From Clostridia bacterium (lineage in GTDB: Bacteria > Bacillota > Clostridia > Oscillospirales > Acutalibacteraceae), in contig JAFXAK010000031.1 of assembly GCA_017517135.1 (NCBI GenBank), positions 84,782 to 148,781 on the forward strand: a stretch of DNA of 64,000 nucleotides, written 5' to 3'. Below the pieces are notes generated by a model. That model made no database searches and had not been told where the DNA came from. It saw nothing but the letters and a program-made list of their open reading frames with translations. Position 1 is the stretch's first letter. Each line of letters opens with the position of its first letter. This document shows positions 5,122 through 64,000 of this stretch, piece after piece. A program made the translations under genes and the position numbers.

Positions 5122-5447
5122 TTGTTTACGCCTCCTTGGATGTTTGGCGGGCTGCTTGTGTTGAAAATTTACACACGGCTCCGGGTGTTTCAACCCTCGC
5201 ATTTTTTAAATCCGGAATATTCGCAAGCTATTCCGGACGCAAAAATTGTGCAATTTTCACCGTTTCAGGGCATGGAAAGCTGGTTAAGGCACAGATTTCC
5301 CCATAAAACGGCCATACTTCGCCCGGTTTCAAATCGGACATACTCCACGGAAATTCCCTGCGTCACAGCGCAGCCACCTTCCGTATCAACGCATATCAGC
5401 CTGTAGGATTTAGGCGCAATACGCCTATCCAGTCAAGCACGAGGAGT
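5122..5447 (-). promoter_or_regulatory. Long (~325 nt) structured 5' leader of the S10 operon
   Basis: It lies between the predicted promoter and the rpsJ RBS and has no credible ORF. It holds several hairpins, for example tccggaata...tattccgga (5211-5237) followed on the mRNA by UUUAAAAAAU, a ctgcg/cgcag stem and an aggcg/cgcct stem. Confidence 0.5.
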
Positions 5448-25985: not shown

Positions 25986-26023
25986 CAAAACGAATTTAAT
26001 TTAATCTGAAGTAAAAATGTAAA

Positions 26024-26080
26024 AAGGGGCTGTATCAAACATCAAAACAGATGTTATCGGTACAGCCCCTTGATATTTTA
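26024..26080. terminator. Bidirectional intrinsic terminator at left edge of AT-rich island
   Basis: The arms ggggctgta (26027-26035) and tacagcccc (26062-26070) are flanked by A-runs and T-runs. Confidence 0.6.
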
Positions 26081-26584
26081 TTGAGAATTTATGTCATCTT
26101 TTATTTTTTTATATTTCTCTATATTGATTTTTTCCTCTGCGAGCATTTTTTCTACCCATAATTGCAGAGTTTCGACGGTTATTGAAATTCGCTCCAATTC
26201 CTTTTGAATGAAAACAAAGTCCTTTATTTCGTCGTCGGAGATTTCTCCGTCTGCGGTGATTTCAATAAGTCTTTCCTGACTTTTCTTCATCGAATTAAGC
26301 GAGGACAGCATTTCAAGAACTATCTGAGCTAAGTCCTTTACCTTTATTTCGGGAACATATTTCTGACCTATCGGACATTCCTTTGAGCAATAGTGATTGC
26401 ACAGCATAGGCTCACCGTATATCTGAGAAAGAAGCATAACCTCTTCGGGCTGAATATCAAACTTTCCGTTCTCTATTCTTTCGAGCCTTTCACTCTGCAA
26501 GGGAAATTTAAGCTCATTTGCCTTATCGCAGACCTCGTCTCTTGTGAGAGAAAGCTTTTTTCTTATATCTTTGTATACGGACAT
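26078..26584 (-). CDS. XRE-family HTH protein with Cys-rich motif
   Basis: The HTH region is LSLTRDEVCDKANELKFPLQSERLERIENGK, followed by CNHYCSKECPIG. The start is the ATG at 26584 after AAAGGTGA. Confidence 0.7.
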   Translation of the reverse strand: MSVYKDIRKKLSLTRDEVCDKANELKFPLQSERLERIENGKFDIQPEEVMLLSQIYGEPMLCNHYCSKECPIGQKYVPEIKVKDLAQIVLEMLSSLNSMKKSQERLIEITADGEISDDEIKDFVFIQKELERISITVETLQLWVEKMLAEEKINIEKYKKIKDDINSQ

Positions 26585-26665
26585 TGTGTTCACCTTTTTA
26601 TTTCAAATATTTACTTAAGTTTAACACAGAATTTTATTTTTTACAATAATTATCAGATAATAAAT

Positions 26666-26702
26666 AAGCCCGGATTTACATACAGTAAATCCGAGGCTTT
26701 GT
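26666..26702 (-). terminator. Terminator after the three-gene module
   Basis: On the minus strand, AAGCCTCGGATTTAC-loop-GTAAATCCGGGCTT is followed by an A/T-rich tail. Confidence 0.45.
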
Positions 26703-26712
26703 TATATAAAAA

Positions 26713-27627
26713 TTAATCTACATATAATCTGTAGGCTAAATCAGAAACATCTGAAGAAAAAGGATATACCTTAAAATAATAATATCCGTTTTCTGTTATA
26801 CTTATTGTCCTTGTCTGCTCAAGCGTTGATGCAACTAAACTGCTAATCAAATCTCCTTGTGCATTATATATTCTAACATCATAATCATAATCTTCCGATG
26901 GTGACCTAAAATAAACATTAGTTGTTCCTGTAAGTCGTATTTTATAATAATCTATATCTGAAGAAGATGATATTGTACCATTAATCCATGTGTTTTGGAG
27001 TCTTGCTTCCGCAGTGGCCATTGTATTATTTGCACTTGGTGTTTCATTCCACCAAAAACATGAATGATCCGGCGCAATATGTCCATTTTTAAACGGTGCA
27101 ATAGCAAATGTGCTTTCTGAATAAACAGTATACTTATTTTCAATAATATAATGCCTTCCTTCCTGAGCACTGATTTTATACTTTGAACCGGCACTATTTT
27201 CTACATCTAATCCAAGAATAACACTATAGTATGTATTGGCTTCAATATCTTCCGGGGCATATGTCCCAACTGCAATATTAACTTCTCCAGGTCTATCAGC
27301 AAATGCTGTATCAAAATACGGATTCGGCAAATCAGTATGATATATTCTGTTGCTTGTCGCATATGCATTGTCATCATAGTCATAAAACAGTAGTTCCTGT
27401 TCATATGTATCTGTAGAACTATCAAATTCTGTAAGTCCAACAGAATTCCATTCTAAAAGCATACAACCACCTGTGCCATTAACTTCATCAAAATCTCCAA
27501 AACTACAAAAACCAAAATATGGCGAATATGTATTATATGAAGCTGCATTAGCAATAATCACACAAAAAAAACTCAAACAAAAACAGAAACAAAATATTAT
27601 TATTCTTTTTAAGTTATTTGTTTTCAT
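26713..27627 (-). CDS. Secreted protein with C-terminal pre-peptidase-C-terminal (PPC)-like beta domain, function unknown
   Basis: The ATG at 27627 follows AGAGGTGA. The signal peptide is ...CVIIANA|AS. The C-terminal region SSSDIDYYKIRLTGTTNVYFRSPSEDYDYDVRIYNAQGDLI resembles PPC/bacterial pre-peptidase domains. Confidence 0.6.
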   Translation of the reverse strand: MKTNNLKRIIIFCFCFCLSFFCVIIANAASYNTYSPYFGFCSFGDFDEVNGTGGCMLLEWNSVGLTEFDSSTDTYEQELLFYDYDDNAYATSNRIYHTDLPNPYFDTAFADRPGEVNIAVGTYAPEDIEANTYYSVILGLDVENSAGSKYKISAQEGRHYIIENKYTVYSESTFAIAPFKNGHIAPDHSCFWWNETPSANNTMATAEARLQNTWINGTISSSSDIDYYKIRLTGTTNVYFRSPSEDYDYDVRIYNAQGDLISSLVASTLEQTRTISITENGYYYFKVYPFSSDVSDLAYRLYVD

Positions 27628-28321
27628 TAATTTCACCTCTTTGTTCTTTGTTTATTGGGGTTATAATATTGTTATTATCAAAATCCAGTATTTCTACAAC
27701 ATAAACAAAATCTTCAGCAATTAAGTTTAGCATTTCTGCCCCTGAACCTTTAACTTTCATTCCACTTATTTGAAGTTTGTCTTCTCTTAAGGCTTTCTTA
27801 TCCTCTTTCAATTTATCTATTTGATTCTGTAATTTTTCAATTGTTTCATAAAATTCGCAAAAATCATCACTTTCTTTTGAATATGTTTTTAAACTATCCA
27901 ATTCTGCCTGAAGATTTTCTCTTTTGTTTTCTAACTCACTCAAATTACTACAAATAACATCATATAATTCTTCCTTATGTGCTTTAATTATTTTGTTTGA
28001 TTTCATTTGACTATTGTTTATATAACAACCGGAAGATTGGCGACCGGATTCAGTTACAAGATTGTGATATGAGGCTATAATATCTAAATTTGCATATTCT
28101 TCCAATGATACATCATCATTAAAGCTAAGCATTACAGTAAATTCTTTTTCGGGTAACTCTGCAAATTCATTGTATCTGTTTTCCGCATAAGCTAAACGGT
28201 CGGAAATATTAAACTTCATATACTCTCTCGCACTAACTTTTTGTGTCTCGGAAATTTTCCATACAAGCGCAGTAACCGCCATAAATAAAACAATTACAAC
28301 AACAAAACATTTTCTTTTCAT
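27614..28321 (-). CDS. N-terminally membrane-anchored protein with coiled-coil insert (paralog of 28334-28867)
   Basis: A GAGGAGA RBS is present and the TM segment is CFVVVIVLFMAVTALVW. The coiled coil reads LSELENKRENLQAELDSLK...LQNQIDKLKEDKKALRE. Confidence 0.6.
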   Translation of the reverse strand: MKRKCFVVVIVLFMAVTALVWKISETQKVSAREYMKFNISDRLAYAENRYNEFAELPEKEFTVMLSFNDDVSLEEYANLDIIASYHNLVTESGRQSSGCYINNSQMKSNKIIKAHKEELYDVICSNLSELENKRENLQAELDSLKTYSKESDDFCEFYETIEKLQNQIDKLKEDKKALREDKLQISGMKVKGSGAEMLNLIAEDFVYVVEILDFDNNNIITPINKEQRGEINENK

Positions 28322-28333
28322 TATTATTCTCCT

Positions 28334-28867
28334 CTATATAGTGTTATTCACCGGATTGACAAAAGAATCAAACAAAAAAATATTAATCAACTGAACAGAA
28401 TTATTTTCCAGCAACTCAGTTAATTCTCTTCCGCTTGCCCTCATTCTGATACCGGTAACTACAGCAATTTTCTCATCGGATTCGGCAAAAAGTCGCTTAT
28501 GTGTTTCGCCAAAAACCTCACTTCCTTTTTGAAATAGGTTATCACTGGGAAACCTACCTGTTGTTCGCTGTCTTTGAGAATCATAATATATATAGCTCAT
28601 ATAAACATGCTTAATCTCGTCAAACTCTGAAAAAATATTTTCTGCTTCATCATATGAAATATCATCAAGACTAACAAGAACATCATATTTGGCAAAAGGA
28701 AAAAGCTTAAATTCAAAATATTGATATTCTGACAAGGAAACTCTGATATCCATATCTTTTGCTTCATTAAAAAACATTGTACTTATACGACCGGGAAGAA
28801 AAACAACCAAAAACATTAATGTTATTACTGTAAGTGTAACACAAAAAAATATCTTCTTCTTTTTCAC
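28334..28867 (-). CDS. N-terminally membrane-anchored protein, function unknown
   Basis: It has a GTG start at 28865-28867 with an AAAGGAA RBS. The TM segment is IFFCVTLTVITLMFLVVFL. Confidence 0.55.
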   Translation of the reverse strand: MKKKKIFFCVTLTVITLMFLVVFLPGRISTMFFNEAKDMDIRVSLSEYQYFEFKLFPFAKYDVLVSLDDISYDEAENIFSEFDEIKHVYMSYIYYDSQRQRTTGRFPSDNLFQKGSEVFGETHKRLFAESDEKIAVVTGIRMRASGRELTELLENNSVQLINIFLFDSFVNPVNNTI

Positions 28868-28961
28868 AATATATCATTCCTTTCAGTCCAAGTTAAATGA
28901 GGTATCAGAGGTAATTTATTTTTATAATAGCAGTCATACCGCCAAAAAATCAATCTCCAAA

Positions 28962-28993
28962 ACATAAATGCAGAAAAATACGACACAAATGCA
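28962..28993 (-). promoter_or_regulatory. LytTR-type direct repeats upstream of the three-gene module
   Basis: On the minus strand, TGCATTTGTGT and TGCATTTATGT start exactly 21 nt apart. They are followed by TTGATT-18 nt-TATTAT. Confidence 0.45.
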
Positions 28994-29036
28994 TAAATTC
29001 CTTAATATTAAGAACATAAACAGTACTATAATATTC

Positions 29037-56000: not shown

Positions 56001-57404
56001 ATGAAAAACTATGTAAAAAAAGCACTTACGCTGCTGCTTGTATTCGTGCTGTCTTTTCAGGCAATATATCCTTCACTTGCAAAGGATGTACCTGTAACAA
56101 AAGAAAGCACAACAGAAATACAGCAGACAACCGAAAAGCAAACTGAAAAAGAAACTGAAAAAGAGACTGAAAAAGAGACTGAAAAAGAGACTGAAAAAGA
56201 GGCCGAGAGTACAACAGAAGCCGAGTCAACAACCGAAGCCTTTGTTTTTGACGAAGCAAAAATGGGAGATGTTGACGGTGACGGGCTTGTTACATCCTCG
56301 GATGCAAGAATACTGCTGCGCGTGGCAGTAAAGCTTGAAACACTCAAAGAAGATGTAAAAATTTACGGTGACTTTGACAAAAACGGGAAAATAACCTCAG
56401 ATGATGCAAGAACTGCCCTCAGAATTGCAGTAAAGCTTGACAATGTACAGTGCATACTCCACGGACATAAAACAAAGCCCGTAAAAATTGCCCCCACCTG
56501 TACCGAAAAGGGCTATACCGTGCAGAAATGTCAGAGATGCTCGTATCAGAGTGAAACAAAAACAGATATCACAAAGGCCACAGGCCATAAGTTAGTTGAA
56601 AAAACAACCAAAGCTACCTGCACCGAAGACGGTATTTACACATCAGTCTGTTCTGTATGCTCCTATGTTGCAAAGGAAAAGGTAGCCGAGAAGGCTACGG
56701 GACACAGCTTCGGTGTGTGGGTGCTTGGGGACAAAACAAAAACCAGAACCTGCAAAAACTGCGGTTATAAGGAAACTGCAAAGAATGTCAAAACGATATA
56801 TCTCACCTTTGACGACGGCCCCGGTCCCTACACCGAAAGGCTTCTGAAATATCTGAAACAATATGATGTGAAAGCAACCTTCTTTGTAACTAACCAAAGT
56901 CCGAAATACAAATATGTACTTAAAGAAATTGTAAAGGACGGACACGCTATAGGTGTTCATACAAAAACACATGAATGGTCGATATATTCAAGCAGAAAAA
57001 GCTATCTCAAGGACTTTAATGCAATGCATAAAATAATCCTCGACGAAACGGGAGTTGACACAAAAATTTTCCGTTTCCCCGGCGGCACGAACAATACCGT
57101 CAGCCGTAAATATTCAAGAGGAATTATGAAAGACCTTGCAAGCTATATGACAAAGCAGGGCTACATCTATTTCGACTGGAACATTGACTGCGGCGACACT
57201 TCGGGCTACAGCTCCTCAAAAATTGCACAGACAACAATAAATCAGATAAAGAAAAGACACACCTCGGTTGTGCTTATGCATGACCTTAAAAGAAACACGG
57301 TTGAAGCTGTTAAAACAATAATAGAATACGGGCTTAAAAACGGCTACGAATTCGCAGTTATAGACGAATCCACCCCGAGAGTACAGTTTAAACCCGTGAA
57401 CTGA
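56001..57404 (+). CDS. Secreted dockerin-containing polysaccharide deacetylase (CE4/NodB) with Cys-repeat spacer
   Basis: A signal peptide is followed by two dockerin Ca-binding repeats (GDVDGDGLVTSSDARILLRVAV and GDFDKNGKITSDDARTALRIAV). Three C-x-rich repeats follow. The NodB domain comes last (YLTFDDGPGPYT, ATFFV, GHAIGVHTKTH, FRFPGG, VVLMHD). Confidence 0.85.
   Translation: MKNYVKKALTLLLVFVLSFQAIYPSLAKDVPVTKESTTEIQQTTEKQTEKETEKETEKETEKETEKEAESTTEAESTTEAFVFDEAKMGDVDGDGLVTSSDARILLRVAVKLETLKEDVKIYGDFDKNGKITSDDARTALRIAVKLDNVQCILHGHKTKPVKIAPTCTEKGYTVQKCQRCSYQSETKTDITKATGHKLVEKTTKATCTEDGIYTSVCSVCSYVAKEKVAEKATGHSFGVWVLGDKTKTRTCKNCGYKETAKNVKTIYLTFDDGPGPYTERLLKYLKQYDVKATFFVTNQSPKYKYVLKEIVKDGHAIGVHTKTHEWSIYSSRKSYLKDFNAMHKIILDETGVDTKIFRFPGGTNNTVSRKYSRGIMKDLASYMTKQGYIYFDWNIDCGDTSGYSSSKIAQTTINQIKKRHTSVVLMHDLKRNTVEAVKTIIEYGLKNGYEFAVIDESTPRVQFKPVN
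56142..56237 (+). repeat. In-frame tandem repeats: 5 x 12 nt (TEKE) then 2 x 18 nt (AESTTE)
   Basis: actgaaaaagag-type units run from 56142 to 56201, and gccgag(t/a)(c/g)aacaacngaa occurs twice at 56202-56237. Confidence 0.85.
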
Positions 57405-60141: not shown

Positions 60142-60309
60142 TCAGGCATACTTTTTGAGGATATTCAAAATTATCTGCTGTGTTTCACCCGGTTCTAAAT
60201 CAATGTTAAGATCCCCCTCTGCCCAGCGCTCTGTTCTTTCTAAAAGAGTTTCAGCTGCCCATTCGTAGGGCTCATCTATACATGGAAGCATATTTCGGAA
60301 CTCGTTCAT
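60142..60309 (-). CDS. Small hypothetical ORF (55 aa), speculative
   Basis: My translation is MNEFRNMLPCIDEPYEWAAETLLERTERWAEGDLNIDLEPGETQQIILNILKKYA. Its ATG overlaps the stop of the upstream 21-codon ORF (ATGA). Confidence 0.35.
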   Translation of the reverse strand: MNEFRNMLPCIDEPYEWAAETLLERTERWAEGDLNIDLEPGETQQIILNILKKYA

Positions 60310-60371
60310 TCCGCCCCTAACAGGTTACACTCAAAGTCTGTGAGCTTCAGTTTGGTTTTCTTATTAAACAT
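60306..60371 (-). CDS. Micro-ORF (21 aa), speculative; possibly the 5' part of a frameshifted gene with 60142-60309
   Basis: AAGGAGG lies 7 nt upstream of the ATG at 60369-60371. The peptide is MFNKKTKLKLTDFECNLLGAE. Confidence 0.3.
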   Translation of the reverse strand: MFNKKTKLKLTDFECNLLGAE

Positions 60372-60377
60372 AAAAAT

Positions 60378-60417
60378 GACCTCCTTGTATTTGGTAATAC
60401 CATTTTACAAGGAGGTC
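60378..60417 (-). terminator. Perfect 12-bp hairpin after the helicase gene; its 3' arm contains the SD of the micro-ORF
   Basis: The arms are gacctccttgta (60378-60389) and tacaaggaggtc (60406-60417). On the minus RNA the hairpin is followed by AUUUUUAUGUUU. Confidence 0.55.
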
Positions 60418-60453
60418 TGTGTTTTGTCGAATGTGCGGATATTTTAATTTTTA

Positions 60454-63186
60454 CTATAAAGAACATAATTTTTTAATAATTGTTTCTTTTTCATTGCTAC
60501 CGTTTGTTGCAAATCTCAACAAAGGAATACCATATAGTTCTAATATTTTATCTTTCTTTTGGTCTCTGATGTTTTGCTCTGTTCCAAGCTTATGATAATG
60601 ATACCCATCAACCTCTATTGCAAGAACAGGCTTTTTACTGATACGATTATAAACAAGAAAATCTAAATGAGTGCCTTTATTCATGGCGTATCGGCAGAGT
60701 TCATCATCTAAAAGTTCAGGGTTTCTGATTAACATGTTTAATGGTTGGTGACTAATCACACCAAGATGGATAAACTCATCGTTCTTTAAAATATCGGTTA
60801 TAAGTTTATGCATCAAGTTTTCAGAATCAAACTCAGAAATCCTTTTTGAGTTTTTTAAATATTCTAATCGACTTTCTGTATATTCTTTATACAAGAAATC
60901 AAAAACAGAATAAATCTTACTTTCAACAACAGTAAAATTATTGTATTCGATATAAGAAATAAGATCTTTTATATTGCTTCCGTCTGCAATTTCATTACCT
61001 GTGACAACAAGAACTAATTGTTTTTTTGCTCTTGAAACAGCAACATTCAATAAATTAGGGTCGTCAACAAATTCGCCTATTTCATCGTCAACAGTTGTCA
61101 GTATGATACTATCTTTTTCTCTTCCCTGAAACTTATGTACGGTTGCAATATCAATTTCATCGTTATTGATTGATTTGGAAAGTGCATTTACTTGGTTGTT
61201 ATATGGTGCGATTATGCCTATTTCATCGTCTTGTACTGTAATTTTAGGCATTATATCTTTTATAACAATATCTATTTGTCTCTGACTGAAATGGTCACGA
61301 GCATGTTCACCTTTAACGGTTTTATAAACAGCTAATGTATCAGCTTCACCTTTATCTTCGGTCATTATAACAAGTTGTTCTCCATAAAACTTTTGGTTAC
61401 AAAAACCTATAATTTTCGGATGACATCTGTAATGCTCCCTCAACAAAGTTTGCGGCACATCTGAAATTAAATTGCATATTGATTCAAGAAAACTATTTTT
61501 AGAAAACCGATAGGCTTCATTTATATTATGATTATCGAATATAACATCTGTTCTTTTAGCAACATCCTCTGTAACAACATTAGGTAATTGTTTGCTGTCA
61601 CCAACAATTACAGCATTTTTAGCACAAGACAAAGCTAATGCACCGGTTGCCACATCAACCTGAGATGCTTCATCAATAATAACATAGTCGAACTTTGCAT
61701 TTTTACATACGCTGCTTCTTGAAGAAAATGTTGTACTTAAAACAACAGGATACTCTTTTATGAAATCCTGAGGTTTCTTCCATAAATCATCCAAAGTAAA
61801 AACTTCTCTACTTGCTTTTTTACCATACTTAGTAAACAATGTATATTTTAATAATTGCATGGATTTTGTATTCAAATCATTTGATGTTTGTGTGGCGTTA
61901 GTGGCTTGAAGATAGTTCTCAAGTTCAGAGATTTCGTGAATTAATTCTTTTTCTTTAATACTGTAATAGAAATCTTGTATTTCCGTAATCAATACAGATA
62001 TATCATTTTTGTAAACATCAAAATTTATTATTCCATACGCAAGGACACTTTTTAATTTAAAAAACCACGATAATTTTTTACCTGTTTCGCTAATTAATTG
62101 GATTTCATTCCAAAGGTTTAATACTTTTTTGGATGTAATGCTCTTTTTTAACTTTAATTTAGGTGATTCGTCCGTTGATTCAGTTTTATATATATCAAAG
62201 TATTTCTTTTCCAATTGCAAAGACTGTAGTTGTTGCTTTGCAATTGCAAGACGCTCTTGTTTTTGATATACTTCACCCAATCTTTGTGAAATATCCTTGA
62301 TAGTATTATTTGATTGAAGAATATCGATATTTTCTTCCCAAGTGGAAATATCAGGATATGTTGTGCTTTGTTTATTTATAAATTCTTCTTTGTTTTTTGT
62401 TGAACCTAATGATGCAACTATGAAACCCATATTATATTTGGGGCCGGACAGTTTTTCCAATACATTTGCCGTTGCAGAATTGTTATTTGAAACTACTTGA
62501 ATGGTTTTTCCGTTGATTAACAGATTCGCTATAATATTTAAGATAGTTTGTGTTTTACCTGTGCCGGGTGGACCTTGTATAACACTGATTTGATTTTCTA
62601 ATGCATTTTTTACAGCATTATATTGGCTTGAATTGCACCCAAAAGGGAATATGGGAGAGCTTGATGTTCTTTTAATGTTTTTATATTTATCAGGATTTAA
62701 ATATATAGCTAAAGGAGTATCATCACCAACGAAGTCTGATATTTTTTCATATTGTTTTGAAAGTAGATTTGTTCCATCGTCAGATTTTATACTTACAGAC
62801 TCTGCTGTTTGTCGCAAATAATTAAAAACACTTTGAGATTCTGCACTTGAAAGGCAGGATTTTACTATATGCAAATCACTCTCATTGTAATCTCGTTCGC
62901 TACCATTATTAAAACAAATATGCCAATATGCATTATAGTTATGTCTGAAAACATATATTGCAGAAATATCAAACAACTCTTTTCCGAGATGTTCAACTTT
63001 ATATAAAGACACATTAAGAACTTCGGGGTCTTTAAGGAAAACTACATTGTTGAAATTATAGTAGAATTGTTTTCCGTTATTGAATACAATATCGTATTTT
63101 CGAGTTTGCTCATTGTATTTACAAAACTTGATATCTGAAGTAACTATCTTCCCTTTTGCAATTACCATATTATTTCTTGTATTCAA
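60454..63186 (-). CDS. SF1 (Upf1/DNA2-like) helicase fused to a C-terminal DUF2726-type PD-(D/E)xK nuclease domain; candidate defence protein
   Basis: It has a TTG start after AAGGAGG. Walker A is GPPGTGKT (aa 205-212) and motif II is IIDEASQ (aa 503-509). Further helicase motifs are VGDSKQLPNVV, HYRCHP, VHKFQGREKDSIILTTV and LNVAVSRAKKQL. The C-terminus reads LDFLVYNRISKKPVLAIEVDGYHYH...RDQKKDKILELYGIPLLRF. Confidence 0.85.
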   Translation of the reverse strand: MNTRNNMVIAKGKIVTSDIKFCKYNEQTRKYDIVFNNGKQFYYNFNNVVFLKDPEVLNVSLYKVEHLGKELFDISAIYVFRHNYNAYWHICFNNGSERDYNESDLHIVKSCLSSAESQSVFNYLRQTAESVSIKSDDGTNLLSKQYEKISDFVGDDTPLAIYLNPDKYKNIKRTSSSPIFPFGCNSSQYNAVKNALENQISVIQGPPGTGKTQTILNIIANLLINGKTIQVVSNNNSATANVLEKLSGPKYNMGFIVASLGSTKNKEEFINKQSTTYPDISTWEENIDILQSNNTIKDISQRLGEVYQKQERLAIAKQQLQSLQLEKKYFDIYKTESTDESPKLKLKKSITSKKVLNLWNEIQLISETGKKLSWFFKLKSVLAYGIINFDVYKNDISVLITEIQDFYYSIKEKELIHEISELENYLQATNATQTSNDLNTKSMQLLKYTLFTKYGKKASREVFTLDDLWKKPQDFIKEYPVVLSTTFSSRSSVCKNAKFDYVIIDEASQVDVATGALALSCAKNAVIVGDSKQLPNVVTEDVAKRTDVIFDNHNINEAYRFSKNSFLESICNLISDVPQTLLREHYRCHPKIIGFCNQKFYGEQLVIMTEDKGEADTLAVYKTVKGEHARDHFSQRQIDIVIKDIMPKITVQDDEIGIIAPYNNQVNALSKSINNDEIDIATVHKFQGREKDSIILTTVDDEIGEFVDDPNLLNVAVSRAKKQLVLVVTGNEIADGSNIKDLISYIEYNNFTVVESKIYSVFDFLYKEYTESRLEYLKNSKRISEFDSENLMHKLITDILKNDEFIHLGVISHQPLNMLIRNPELLDDELCRYAMNKGTHLDFLVYNRISKKPVLAIEVDGYHYHKLGTEQNIRDQKKDKILELYGIPLLRFATNGSNEKETIIKKLCSL

Positions 63187-63217
63187 AATAACACCTCCTT
63201 ATAAATTTCTGATTTTT

Positions 63218-63247
63218 ATTATATCACATCATTATTCATTATATCAA
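63218..63247 (-). promoter_or_regulatory. Promoter of the helicase cassette
   Basis: On the minus strand, TTGATA (63242-63247) is separated by 18 nt from TATAAT (63218-63223), which is preceded by TGA. Confidence 0.45.
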
Positions 63248-63259
63248 CACCCATAAACG

Positions 63260-63296
63260 ACAAAAACTCCTCGCCGATTGCTCGATGAGGAGTTCA
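63260..63296 (-). terminator. Intrinsic terminator after the orphan gene fragment
   Basis: On the minus strand, AACTCCTC-loop-GAGGAGTT is followed by TTTTGTCGTTT. Confidence 0.6.
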
Positions 63297-63298
63297 TT

Positions 63299-63475
63299 TT
63301 AAATATAGAGTTTTACTTCAATATCTCGCCAGCCTCTTACACGCTTTGTCGGGGATATGGAATAGACATATTCCTGTGCATCCTCAATCGTGAGAGTGAA
63401 TTCAGCGAACTGAGTGAAGATTATTTCGTCAGCAACAAGGTTCTCGGGTACCCGTTGACCAAATCTTTGATTTGG
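63299..63475 (-). pseudogene. Orphan 3' gene fragment (58 codons, no start codon)
   Basis: The frame is open only from a TGA at 63476-63478. It reads PNQRFGQRVPENLVADEIIFTQFAEFTLTIEDAQEYVYSISPTKRVRGWRDIEVKLYI*, has its own terminator, and has no ATG/GTG/TTG with an RBS. Confidence 0.4.
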
Positions 63476-63483
63476 TCAACGGG
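63451..63483. repeat. Perfect 15-bp inverted repeat with 3-nt spacer at the recombinase/fragment junction
   Basis: The sequence is cccgttgaccaaatc ttt gatttggtcaacggg. Confidence 0.85.
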
Positions 63484-63503
63484 TGGGGTTCTTATTTCCT
63501 GCA

Positions 63504-64000
63504 TCAGCAATAGCTGCCTGTGTCGCAATTCTGCTTGGTTGGCAGTTTACCGCCAACCACAGAAACAGAACTGTTTTTTCTTCTTTTGCCCTCGGTTTTC
63601 ATGTGAAGAGGGTCATTTGGGTCTCCGTCAAAGCGGAGATACCAGTCGAAGCCGTCCCTCTTTGCCACAATCTTCACAACAAAGGCCTCAATCACACTTT
63701 CGGGGATGTCTTTTTCATCAGCATTTGTGTACTGCTCGAGAGCATATTGAAGCACCGTCAGCTTGTCCTTGTAGTCTGTAATTACAGGCTCTTTGTTAAG
63801 CTTAGACTGAAGCTCTTCGATTTCGGCAGACAGCTTTGCAATCTCTTCTTTAACCTCGGCAGTTTTCTTTGTATAAGATTCTTTATCAATTTCACCCTCT
63901 GCCCTCATATCAATAAAATTGCTGAGCTTCGTTCTGTACCTTTCAACCTCTCTGCATTTTTTCTCAATGATAGCCTCATAATCCACATCATCCTCTTTAT
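63504..64000 (-). CDS. Large serine recombinase, C-terminal part (5' end beyond window)
   Basis: The coiled coil reads KTAEVKEEIAKLSAEIEELQSKL. A DUF4368-like segment, IPESVIEAFVVKIVAKRDGFDWYLRF, follows; both are typical of clostridial TnpX/TndX-like recombinases. The reading frame stays open to position 64000. Confidence 0.75.
   Translation of the reverse strand, partial: KEDDVDYEAIIEKKCREVERYRTKLSNFIDMRAEGEIDKESYTKKTAEVKEEIAKLSAEIEELQSKLNKEPVITDYKDKLTVLQYALEQYTNADEKDIPESVIEAFVVKIVAKRDGFDWYLRFDGDPNDPLHMKTEGKRRKNSSVSVVGGKLPTKQNCDTGSYC

What the first reader, a model, noticed from the sequence alone, without database searches (positions are those of the whole stretch)
60454..63186. Stand-alone, AT-rich helicase-nuclease cassette next to a mobile-element junction: candidate single-gene defence system
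This 910-aa protein has its own promoter (63218-63247) and terminator (60378-60417). It is much more AT-rich than the genes on either side, and it lies about 300 bp from a serine recombinase gene. It has four parts. The N-terminal region of about 190 aa is unknown. A complete SF1 Upf1/DNA2-like helicase core follows. A coiled-coil insertion of about 200 aa sits between Walker A (aa 205) and DEAS (aa 505). The C-terminus is a DUF2726-type PD-(D/E)xK nuclease (D842, E858-x-D860). Fusions of an SF1 helicase with a restriction-endonuclease-fold domain are a recurring theme in single-gene anti-phage and anti-plasmid proteins such as the Nhi-type nuclease-helicases. This particular arrangement, with the N-terminal module and the nuclease at the C-terminus, is not one I can assign to a named system.
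Basis: partly seen in the sequence, partly recalled or inferred. Interest (0 to 1): 0.75.

Follow-up and report, generated by a model that had tools for sequence, protein, structure and literature searches.

The report
Solitary helicase-nuclease gene, likely anti-phage
This is a self-contained, horizontally spread gene for a 910-aa motor-plus-DNA-cutter protein from a large unnamed family that often sits among bacterial immunity genes, so it is a good but still untested candidate for a one-gene defence system.

Summary
Window 60454-63186(-) encodes an intact 910-aa protein. It has its own promoter, a strong ribosome-binding site and an intrinsic terminator. Its GC is 31% against 41% in the host, and it lies 318 bp from a large serine recombinase gene. 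The protein has a family-specific N-terminal domain with no detectable relatives, then a Upf1/DNA2-type SF1B helicase with a long helical insertion after Walker A, then a Vsr/DUF2726-type nuclease. All catalytic residues are conserved across phyla. The family is large and is named only "AAA/DUF2726 domain-containing protein". It occurs in Bacillota, Bacteroidota, Spirochaetota and Fusobacteriota, and a remote 893-aa relative is present in 12% of complete E. coli genomes. It has no conserved neighbour gene and no synteny. Roughly one in eight of the immediately flanking ORFs matches restriction, BREX, Septu, Abi or PADLOC-candidate proteins. A 3.1-kb unit 97.8% identical to the window copy sits in a quite different genome context. 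The protein matches no named defence model (PADLOC 2.0, NCBIfam 2026). It is not Nhi, Hhe or Mokosh. The closest described architecture is the CnuH helicase of Type III-B CoCoNuT systems, but this protein lacks the McrBC partners. Verdict: a credible candidate single-gene defence protein and a new variant of a known kind. Function is untested.

The parts
60454..63186 (-). Coding sequence of the 910-aa helicase-nuclease (TTG start, TAG stop)
   Evidence: ORF list. The exact protein is called as 910 aa on 7 public contigs. Full-length homologues of 905-935 aa.
63218..63247 (-). Sigma-70-type promoter: TTGATA, 18 nt, TG-extended TATAAT
   Evidence: Matches 11 of 12 positions and is the best site in the region. 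Conserved in position in L007 and L018. Lies inside the 3.1-kb unit shared with L103.
63192..63200 (-). Shine-Dalgarno AAGGAGGTG, 5 nt before the TTG start
   Evidence: Read from the sequence. Conserved in L007 and L018.
62638..63186 (-). N-terminal domain (aa 1-183): two small beta modules plus three helices, ending in the invariant FPFG motif
   Evidence: No Pfam or PDB sequence hit. AlphaFold pLDDT 88. No Foldseek match at E<=1e-3 in PDB or BFVD. Found only at the N-terminus of this family.
60982..62637 (-). SF1B Upf1/DNA2-like helicase core (aa 184-735), with Walker A at 205-212 and DEAS at 505-508
   Evidence: AAA_11 and AAA_12. PDB profile hits to DNA2, IGHMBP2, UPF1 and Sen1. Foldseek top hits UPF1 and IGHMBP2, E about 1e-21. 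Motifs invariant.
61777..62364 (-). Long helical insertion in RecA1 (about aa 275-470) between Walker A and Walker B
   Evidence: AlphaFold helices 289-337, 352-368, 374-384, 396-428 and 431-454. It is the least conserved block of the protein.
60457..60696 (-). C-terminal Vsr/DUF2726-type PD-(D/E)xK nuclease domain (aa 831-910)
   Evidence: DUF2726 E = 2.5e-9, above the gathering score. MTES_1575 and DUF559 hits are sub-threshold. H840, D842, E858, D860, H865, Q871, R874, D875 and K878 are at least 97% conserved in 68 sequences.
60370..60417 (-). Intrinsic terminator: hairpin at 60378-60417 followed by a U-run
   Evidence: RNA fold -25.7 kcal/mol, z = -5.5. Conserved in L007, L018 and L103.
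60142..60371 (-). Frameshifted remnant of a small ORF, read as 21 aa plus 55 aa. It is linked to the cassette only in the closest subclade
   Evidence: ORFs. Intact 52-53-aa versions in L018 and L103. Absent from the other loci. No Pfam or PHROG hit.
60285..63427 (-). 3.1-kb unit shared at 97.8% identity with a different genomic context (L102/L103)
   Evidence: blastn. A shorter shared core of about 63265-60286 is seen with L018 and L007.
63259..63427 (-). Short ORF tail (...RGWRDIEVKLYI*) plus a terminator (about 63259-63294) upstream of the promoter
   Evidence: Translation. An analogous module follows a related recombinase in L109.
63504..64000 (-). 3' part of a 580-aa large serine recombinase, the last backbone gene of a relaxase-ParB-recombinase element. 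Its own terminator hairpin is at 63449-63485
   Evidence: ORF. Full gene and upstream relaxase and ParB_N in L001. Hairpin. The same backbone occurs in L107 and L111.

Best explanation
The gene encodes an autonomous, horizontally mobile helicase-nuclease that most likely acts as a single-protein defence factor against invading nucleic acid, such as phage or other mobile DNA.

Shown:
- It is a self-contained transcription unit.
- The protein has an intact Upf1/DNA2-type SF1B ATPase motor, an intact Vsr/DUF2726-type metal-dependent endonuclease, and a conserved family-specific N-terminal domain.
- The family has no obligate partner gene, is patchily distributed across phyla, and is often embedded among restriction and other defence genes.

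Inferred mechanism:
- The N-terminal tandem beta-module domain and the long helical insertion act as the recognition and regulatory part. They would bind a nucleic-acid structure or an invader protein, or mediate oligomerisation, and keep the nuclease off.
- Once engaged, the motor translocates 5'->3' on single-stranded nucleic acid, as SF1B enzymes such as DNA2, Upf1 and Dda do.
- The motor delivers the C-terminal endonuclease, which nicks or degrades the invader's DNA. The likely targets are replication or recombination intermediates.
- Whether the target is DNA or RNA is not settled. Whether the outcome is direct clearance or abortive infection is also not settled.
For: Stand-alone unit: promoter, SD and terminator are present and are conserved across contexts.

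Architecture and conserved catalytic residues.

No conserved neighbour in 80 loci. Small ORFs were checked separately.

Horizontal spread:
- Full-length identity of 44-58% across four phyla.
- The gene has lower GC than its flanks in 56 of 67 loci.
- A near-identical 3.1-kb unit occurs in two unrelated contexts.
- One copy lies about 100 nt from a tmRNA gene.
- The E. coli relative is in 12% of complete genomes, in IS-rich islands.

Defence neighbourhood:
- Among 279 nearest ORFs: Mrr_cat, GmrSD_N, NERD, DUF2971, the PLD-ResIII-DUF3427 type IV enzyme, type II R-M, BrxA/BrxB, PtuB, AbiEii, SoFic, and PDC-S01/02/04/05/06/23/37/68.
- AbiH and DUF2971 lie beside the 82% identical homologue.
- MmeI-type R-M genes lie beside the copy from the same 90% cluster.

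Precedent: solitary helicase-nuclease defence proteins are already known, including Nhi, Hna, HmaA and Hhe.
Against: - No experiment exists on any family member.
- No profile of a validated defence system covers more than the helicase core.
- A good share of loci have ordinary metabolic neighbours, for example L015 and SmpB or DHO_dh.
- My estimate that about 12% of flanking ORFs are defence-like has no matched background control. It also rests on summary tables, not on per-protein calls.
- Upf1-like helicases and PD-(D/E)xK nucleases also serve repair and RNA surveillance.
- The role I assign to the N-domain is pure inference.
Confidence: 0.6

Rival explanations
1. It is cargo that serves the mobile element rather than the host cell. 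For example, it could exclude or degrade competing plasmids, ICEs or prophages, or stabilise the element. In that case it would act on incoming conjugative single-stranded DNA.
For: - In the window it directly follows the relaxase-ParB-serine-recombinase backbone.
- A divergent homologue in L058 also directly follows a serine recombinase.
- The L103 copy is followed by small ORF-DUF6809-TnpV, which are typical transposon or ICE accessory genes.
- An SF1B motor that loads on 5' single-stranded DNA would suit incoming transferred strands (inference).
Against: - Only 1 of the 80 surveyed species-representative loci (L058) shows a recombinase next to the gene.
- Related recombinases are followed by different genes each time.
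- This reading overlaps with defence and differs only in who benefits.
Confidence: 0.2
2. It is one component of a multi-gene system of the CoCoNuT Type III-B kind. In such systems a CnuH helicase-Vsr fusion works together with McrB/McrC-like GTPase and nuclease partners. Here the partners would be encoded elsewhere or would have been lost.
For: The architecture matches the published description of Type III-B CnuH: a UPF1-like helicase, a large helical insertion right after Walker A, and a directly fused Vsr-like nuclease.
Against: - No conserved neighbour of any kind in 80 loci.
- The window neighbours are a recombinase, a small ORF remnant and a lipase.
- The N-terminus is two beta modules, not the wHTH described for Type III-B.
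- The gene has its own promoter and terminator.
Confidence: 0.07
3. It is a housekeeping or stress-induced DNA repair or RNA surveillance enzyme, a bacterial analogue of DNA2 or Upf1, that happens to be horizontally transferred.
For: The best solved-structure relatives are DNA2, IGHMBP2, UPF1 and Sen1. Some loci lie among metabolic genes.
Against: - Patchy presence: 12% of complete E. coli genomes carry the relative.
- No synteny.
- Atypical GC.
- Frequent pseudogenisation, as in the E. coli O157 frameshift and in L018, L069 and L094.
- Many defence-gene neighbours.
Confidence: 0.08
4. It is a selfish cassette that promotes its own spread. Vsr/DUF559-type nucleases include homing endonucleases, and the helicase could assist a homing-like or recombination-based copy process.
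For: - A discrete unit of about 3 kb appears in unrelated sites, sometimes with no recombinase nearby.
- The flank downstream of the stop codon is more conserved than the gene itself, 90.5% against 74%.
- The Vsr/DUF559 group includes a group I intron homing endonuclease.
Against: - No terminal repeats or target duplications were seen in the flanks I aligned.
- The conserved flanks look like the backbone of a TnpV/DUF6809 element and of a recombinase-end module.
- A 910-aa helicase fusion is unlike known homing endonucleases.
Confidence: 0.05

Closest known systems
CnuH helicase of Type III-B CoCoNuT systems (Bell et al., eLife 2024, PMC11090510). Known from computational description only
   Same: Both are UPF1-like SF1 helicases. 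Both have a large helical, coiled-coil-type insertion immediately after Walker A, accessory N-terminal nucleic-acid-binding-type domains, and a Vsr-like PD-(D/E)xK endonuclease fused directly to the helicase.
   Different: CnuH is described in near-complete association with the McrB/McrC homologues CnuB and CnuC, and Type III-B systems also encode CnuA. This family is solitary. The N-terminus described for Type III-B is a Sul7s-like wHTH. Here it is two small beta modules with no detectable relatives. I could not test sequence-level relatedness because the Type III-B sequences are cut from the held supplement.
Hhe (Gao et al. 2020), a single-gene DUF4011-helicase-Vsr endonuclease defence protein
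   Same: Both are single genes. Both have an AAA_11/AAA_12-type SF1 helicase followed by a Vsr/MTES_1575/DUF559-class nuclease. Sub-threshold MTES_1575 and DUF559 hits fall on the same stretch as DUF2726. The Vsr-nuclease architecture of Hhe itself comes from my own knowledge and was not checked here.
   Different: The Hhe profiles are about 1800-1900 positions long, roughly twice the size of this protein. NCBIfam Hhe_antiphage scores 85.8 bits against a cutoff of 2000, and the PADLOC Hhe hit covers only aa 497-632. This protein has no DUF4011 hit.
Nhi (nuclease-helicase immunity, S. epidermidis SERP2475; bioRxiv 10.1101/776245)
   Same: Both are single-protein systems that combine a PD-(D/E)xK nuclease with an SF1B helicase. 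For Nhi, both activities are required for immunity, and it is spread by horizontal transfer near defence genes.
   Different: Nhi is 606 aa. Its nuclease is N-terminal and HsdR-like, and its helicase is the DUF2075/Dda-like family (PF09848), followed by a glyoxalase-like C-terminus. Here the order is reversed, the helicase is AAA_11/AAA_12, and PF09848 matches only the P-loop stretch at aa 199-256. No Nhi model is among the PADLOC hits.
Mokosh (MkoA/MkoB; type II MkoC)
   Same: The best PADLOC hits are MkoA at 7.5e-51 and MkoC at 3.6e-49. Both are Upf1-like helicase-based defence proteins.
   Different: The hits cover only the helicase core (aa 185-748) of profiles longer than 1100 positions. 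From my own knowledge, the Mokosh effector is a PLD nuclease. This protein has no PLD domain and carries a DUF2726 nuclease instead.
Hna, HmaA and DdmD (solitary or paired SF2 helicase-nuclease defence proteins)
   Same: The logic is the same: a helicase fused to a C-terminal PD-(D/E)xK-type nuclease. Hna and HmaA confer phage defence alone, and DdmD belongs to the anti-plasmid DdmDE system.
   Different: They are SF2 helicases, not SF1B, and show no sequence relationship in any search I ran.
Eukaryotic DNA2
   Same: It is the top solved-structure relative by sequence profile (5eax, E = 1.8e-29). It also combines an SF1B helicase with a PD-(D/E)xK nuclease in one chain.
   Different: In DNA2 the nuclease is N-terminal and of the RecB type with an Fe-S cluster (my own knowledge). 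DNA2 is a conserved housekeeping replication and repair enzyme, whereas this gene is accessory and mobile.

Membership tests
Upf1/DNA2-like SF1B helicases (Pfam AAA_11 + AAA_12) | Both RecA-like halves match above the gathering score, with intact Walker A, Walker B (DE) and the later SF1 motifs | tested here: met
   AAA_11 scores 104.5 bits and AAA_12 scores 100.7 bits, both against a cutoff of 27. GPPGTGKT 205-212, D505-E506, Q533, the R587-C-H-P block and R719 are conserved. PDB and Foldseek top hits are UPF1, IGHMBP2, DNA2 and Sen1.
DUF2726 / Vsr-like PD-(D/E)xK nucleases | Profile match above threshold with conserved acidic and histidine metal-binding residues | tested here: met
   PF10881 scores 37.4 bits against 24.7. 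H840, D842, E858, D860, H865, Q871, R874, D875 and K878 are at least 97% conserved in 68 sequences. DUF2726 is classed as a PD-(D/E)xK fold, and the name also appears in that classification's Vsr/DUF559 row.
Nhi | N-terminal HsdR-like PD-(D/E)xK nuclease domain | tested here: not met
   The N-terminus (aa 1-183) has no nuclease hit and an all-beta plus helical fold. The nuclease is C-terminal.
Nhi | DUF2075 (PF09848) Dda-like helicase core | tested here: not met
   PF09848 matches only aa 199-256, which is profile positions 2-56 of 354. The core is AAA_11/AAA_12.
Hhe | Whole-protein match to the Hhe model, including a DUF4011 N-terminal region | tested here: not met
   NF042953 scores 85.8 bits against a cutoff of 2000, and the PADLOC Hhe hit covers aa 497-632 only. 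There is no DUF4011 hit.
Mokosh (MkoA/MkoC) | Full-length match to MkoA or MkoC, with a PLD nuclease as MkoB or as the C-terminus of MkoC | tested here: not met
   Hits are confined to the helicase core aa 185-748. The protein has no PLDc domain and no conserved PLD neighbour.
CoCoNuT Type III-B (CnuH) | UPF1-like helicase with a large helical insertion after Walker A and a directly fused Vsr-like nuclease | tested here: met
   compared with the description.
CoCoNuT Type III-B (CnuH) | Operon association with McrB-like CnuB, McrC-like CnuC and the coiled-coil protein CnuA | tested here: not met
   No neighbour family occurs in more than 9 of 80 loci, and that family is a PLD-ResIII-DUF3427/HsdR enzyme. 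The window neighbours are a recombinase, a small ORF and a lipase.
CoCoNuT Type III-B (CnuH) | Sequence or phylogenetic placement inside the CnuH clade | not testable with these tools
   The Type III-B sequences are cut from the held supplementary file.
Anti-phage or anti-MGE defence systems (operational definition) | Accessory gene, horizontally mobile, enriched next to known defence genes | tested here: met
   Enrichment is judged without a matched background set.
Anti-phage or anti-MGE defence systems (operational definition) | Measured protection against phage or plasmids that depends on the catalytic residues | not testable with these tools
   This needs wet-lab assays. I found no paper on this family. 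A full-text search for 'DUF2726' returns 8 papers, and none describes a helicase fusion as a defence system.

The most novel reading that the evidence does not exclude
This family, including the 893-aa E. coli member and abundant gut Bacteroides and Alistipes members, is a new autonomous one-protein immune system. Its family-specific tandem beta-module N-domain would be a previously unseen sensor. The system would show that the CnuH-type helicase-Vsr module of CoCoNuT systems can work without McrBC partners. It might act on RNA or RNA-DNA hybrids instead of duplex DNA.
Probability: 0.35. Interest if true: 0.65.

Novelty: new variant of a known kind. Interest (0 to 1): 0.5.

Why it matters
If it protects, this would add a widespread single-gene system to the defence catalogue. 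Members occur in common human-gut genera and in 12% of complete E. coli genomes, so it would affect phage-therapy host-range predictions and defence-island annotation. The E. coli copy makes the hypothesis directly testable in a standard host. The unexplained N-terminal domain offers a route to finding what triggers helicase-nuclease immune proteins, which is still unclear even for Nhi, Hna and Hachiman. If it does not protect, it is simply another mobile accessory helicase-nuclease.

Tried and rejected
1. Empty-site search. I looked up the exact GDSL-lipase neighbour and the 55-aa ORF. Only the same context came back.

2. Logan contig breaks at 60369 and 60410. These looked like cassette boundaries, but a SNP near 60376 explains them. 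I do not use them as evidence of mobility.

3. Plasmid carriage. The Bacteroides finegoldii 'plasmid 24' hit carries ffh and folD, so it looks like a chromosomal fragment. The EDL933 'plasmid unnamed2' hit carries island-type genes, and 659 of the 660 E. coli matches lie on chromosomes. I do not claim plasmid carriage.

4. Phage carriage. Only two partial hits appeared, both on unannotated faecal 'Bacteriophage sp.' contigs. That is too weak to use.

5. Identity of the N-domain.
   - Pfam at E<=10 gives only weak KTSC hits in 5 of 16 members.
   - The PDB sequence profile gives nothing.
   - Foldseek against PDB and BFVD gives nothing at E<=1e-3. The best hits are eS4 and the 53BP1 tandem Tudor at TM about 0.2-0.3.
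   - I describe the fold and do not name a family.

6. Small downstream ORF as a partner gene. Rejected for the family as a whole. It is present only in the closest subclade and is frameshifted here.

7. Rfam scan of the cassette flanks. Nothing in the window. A tmRNA gene lies next to the L018 copy.

8. Inside or outside the recombinase element. This remains unresolved.

9. Type III-B CnuH sequences for a direct comparison. They are not retrievable from the held supplement.


Full report
OBSERVATION

The ORF at 60454-63186(-) is real and intact at 910 aa. Its TTG start sits 5 nt after an AAGGAGGTG Shine-Dalgarno, and both are kept in the 74-75% identical copies L007 and L018. So the 910-aa reading is right, and the ATG at codon 7 is not the start.

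The gene is 30.6% GC against 41% for the rest of the window.

The proposed promoter at 63247-63218 is TTGATA-18-TGxTATAAT. It is the best consensus match in the region, at 11 of 12 positions.

The proposed terminator at 60378-60417 folds at -25.7 kcal/mol (z = -5.5) and is followed by UUUUUAU.

The ORF ending at 63504 is the 3' part of a 580-aa large serine recombinase. Public contigs that carry this exact locus show relaxase, ParB_N and a 66-aa ORF before it.

One member of the protein's 90% identity cluster is named as coming from Ruminococcus callidus, so the host is probably a Ruminococcus-like gut bacterium.

ANATOMY OF THE PROTEIN

- Pfam finds AAA_11 at aa 184-539, AAA_12 at aa 564-727 and DUF2726 at aa 837-907, all above the gathering score. 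Nothing matches aa 1-183.
- A profile of 23 homologues hits DNA2, IGHMBP2, UPF1 and Sen1 in the PDB.
- A confident full-length AlphaFold model (pLDDT 85.5, pTM 0.75) has UPF1 and IGHMBP2 as its best Foldseek matches, at E about 1e-21.
- Between Walker A (205-212) and DEAS (505-508) the model has helices of 49, 33 and 24 residues. This confirms the long helical insertion.
- The nuclease carries the Vsr/DUF559-like pattern H840-x-D842 ... E858-V-D860-G ... H865-K866 ... R874-D875. These residues and all the helicase motifs are at least 97% conserved in 68 full-length sequences from several phyla.
- Modelled alone, the N-terminal 180 residues reach pLDDT 88. They form two small beta modules followed by three helices.
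- That N-terminal domain has no PDB sequence hit. Pfam gives only weak KTSC hits in 5 of 16 members. No structural match reaches E<=1e-3 in PDB or BFVD, and the best hits are eS4 and the 53BP1 tandem Tudor at TM 0.2-0.3.
- An exhaustive phmmer search against 1.84 billion representative proteins finds the N-domain in 525 clusters. In the 150 best hits that were listed it sits at the N-terminus, in proteins of about 900-930 aa or in shorter proteins that are probably fragments. So it is a family-specific module.

THE FAMILY AND ITS CONTEXTS

Homologues with the same length and architecture are abundant. The top 120 hits of each of two searches are nearly all 890-950 aa, apart from a few shorter proteins that are probably fragments. 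Some clusters hold thousands of members. Sources name them only 'AAA domain-containing protein' or 'DUF2726 domain-containing protein'.

The best 80 come from the following groups, at 44-58% full-length identity (two closer copies reach 75%):
- Lachnospiraceae, Oscillospiraceae, Desulfitobacterium, Paenibacillus and Negativicutes
- Bacteroides, Alistipes and Rikenellaceae
- Treponema
- Fusobacterium

That pattern points to horizontal transfer.

I called ORFs in these 80 loci and clustered all the neighbours. No family recurs in more than 9 loci. That most frequent family is the PLD-ResIII-DUF3427 type IV restriction enzyme together with HsdR.

I then scanned the two nearest ORFs on each side, 279 in total.
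- Pfam finds Mrr_cat, GmrSD_N, NERD, DUF2971, Fic and a serine recombinase.
- PADLOC at E<=1e-10 finds type IV and type II restriction, BrxA/BrxB, PtuB, AbiEii, SoFic and PDC-S01/02/04/05/06/23/37/68.

By my count from these summary tables, roughly 35 of the 279 ORFs are defence-like. This estimate has no matched background. The other neighbours are ordinary metabolic genes.

Closer relatives tell the same story:
- The 82% identical homologue lies near AbiH and DUF2971.
- The 76% identical one follows two large helicase-type genes.
- One locus has a tandem paralogue.
- The gene has lower GC than its flanks in 56 of 67 loci.

A remote member exists in E. coli. It is an 893-aa protein with 38% identity from the FPFG motif to the C-terminus. 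The N-domain homology is only marginally detectable by profile comparison: hhalign E = 5.6e-5 and probability 66%, over the whole domain. The gene is present in 648 of 5426 complete genomes, in IS-rich chromosomal islands next to ibrA/ibrB-like genes. In O157:H7 a 1-nt frameshift splits it into 171 + 722 aa.

MOBILITY OF THE UNIT

A protein from the same 90% cluster sits in another genome (L102/L103) on a 3145-nt stretch that is 97.8% identical to window 60285-63427. There it lies between metabolic genes and a block of small ORF-DUF6809-TnpV plus two MmeI-type R-M genes.

The 74-75% identical copies L018 and L007 share a core of about 63265-60286, which includes the promoter and the terminator. 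In L018 this core begins about 100 nt after a tmRNA gene, a classic island insertion point.

The 165 nt after the stop codon contain the hairpin and the first 29 or so codons of a small ORF. This stretch is 90.5% identical between the window and L018, whereas the coding sequence is only 74% identical. The small ORF is intact at 52-53 aa in L018 and L103, is frameshifted in the window, and is absent from all the more distant loci. So it is not a family-wide partner.

Related recombinases are always the last gene of a relaxase-ParB backbone. After 270-330 nt they are followed by a different same-strand gene each time, and in one case by a tRNA-like att fragment. In L103 the sequence upstream of the unit keeps only about 45 nt that resemble the recombinase 3' end.

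Two readings fit these data. The cassette could occupy a variable slot at the recombinase end of the element, or the element could have landed next to a resident remnant that carries the cassette. I could not decide between them.

WHAT IT IS NOT, AND WHAT IT RESEMBLES

PADLOC hits (MkoA, MkoC, PDC-S37, Hhe) and NCBIfam hits (IGHMBP2 family, ProA, PLuB, Hhe) cover only the helicase core. The NCBIfam scores are far below the curated cutoffs, for example Hhe at 85.8 against 2000 bits. The E. coli member behaves the same way.

Nhi is 606 aa, with an N-terminal HsdR-like nuclease and a DUF2075/Dda-like helicase. That is a different family with the opposite domain order.

The closest published description is CnuH of the Type III-B CoCoNuT systems. 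It is a UPF1-like helicase with a large coiled-coil insertion after Walker A and a directly fused Vsr-like nuclease. However, CnuH is described in near-complete association with McrB/McrC homologues, Type III-B systems also encode a CnuA coiled-coil protein, and Type III-B CnuH has a wHTH N-terminus. This family is solitary and has a different N-terminus.

Solitary helicase-nuclease defence proteins are an established class that includes Nhi, Hna, HmaA and Hhe. A full-text search for DUF2726 returns eight papers. None describes this fusion as a defence system. The two most relevant papers class DUF2726 as a restriction-endonuclease-fold domain linked to mobile elements and Abi-type fusions.

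MECHANISM (inferred)

The conserved motor should translocate 5'->3' on single-stranded nucleic acid, like other SF1B enzymes. The conserved Vsr-type site should nick or cut DNA. The N-domain and the helical insertion are the obvious candidates for target or trigger recognition, autoinhibition or oligomerisation.

I put 0.6 on an immune role against phage or other mobile DNA. The main alternative is the same activity used for the benefit of the carrying element (0.2). I give less weight to a partner-dependent CoCoNuT-like role, a repair function, or a selfish homing-like cassette.

VERDICT

It is a new, unnamed variant within the known class of helicase-nuclease defence proteins, not a new kind of system. 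Interest is moderate, at 0.5. The E. coli member makes the hypothesis easy to test.

Noticed in passing
window 26000-31100: A second AT-rich block (GC 0.29-0.34). It holds an AgrC-like GHKL histidine kinase (29037-30410-), a LytTR response regulator (30331-31035-) and four ORFs with no Pfam hit (26078-28867-). It looks like a quorum-sensing or bacteriocin-type accessory locus.
   Followed up: partly
window 60142-60371: A small ORF after the terminator (MFNKKTKLKLTDFECNL...) is frameshifted here, reading as 21 aa plus 55 aa. It is intact at 52-53 aa in L018 and L103. The DNA around its start is more conserved than the helicase-nuclease gene: 90.5% against 74% in the comparison with L018.
   Followed up: yes
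window 63259-63427; L109 2017-2260: Between the recombinase and the cassette promoter lies a short ORF tail (...RGWRDIEVKLYI*) plus a terminator. A related element has an analogous tail (...KWHDIQIGVYV*), a terminator and a 'TTTATGGGG' motif. This looks like a conserved element-end module of unknown role.
   Followed up: partly
L098 8450-11130; L100 8001-10682: The family's E. coli member is a single 893-aa gene in O104:H4 and other lineages. In the O157:H7 records listed (EDL933, TR01, Z1830) a 1-nt frameshift splits it into 171 + 722 aa. It always sits next to ibrA/ibrB-like genes (PAPS reductase plus ParB-like) in an IS-rich island.
   Followed up: partly
L016 6922-9924: A 1000-aa paralogue (AAA_11/AAA_12 with a weak DUF2726 hit) lies 76 nt upstream of the 911-aa family member. 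A NERD+HRDC gene and an HNH gene are nearby.
   Followed up: no
L110 and L111, about 170 nt after the recombinase stop: A fragment resembling a tRNA 3' end (GGTTCGAATCC) follows a 78% identical recombinase. It is probably the att site of that element.
   Followed up: no
L106 6850-6885: A 36-nt copy of the cassette's terminator hairpin, 97% identical to window 60380-60415, recurs 3 kb from the 82% identical homologue. It lies between a DUF2971 gene and an AbiH gene.
   Followed up: no
window 56001-57404: This ORF has a (TEKE)n low-complexity stretch and two dockerin-like D.DGDG...DA repeats. I read these from the translation and did not test them. They fit a cellulolytic Ruminococcus-type host.
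   Followed up: no
window 5319-5398: The Rfam S10-Clostridia ribosomal-protein leader hit is exactly at threshold, 35.2 against 35.1 bits.
   Followed up: no
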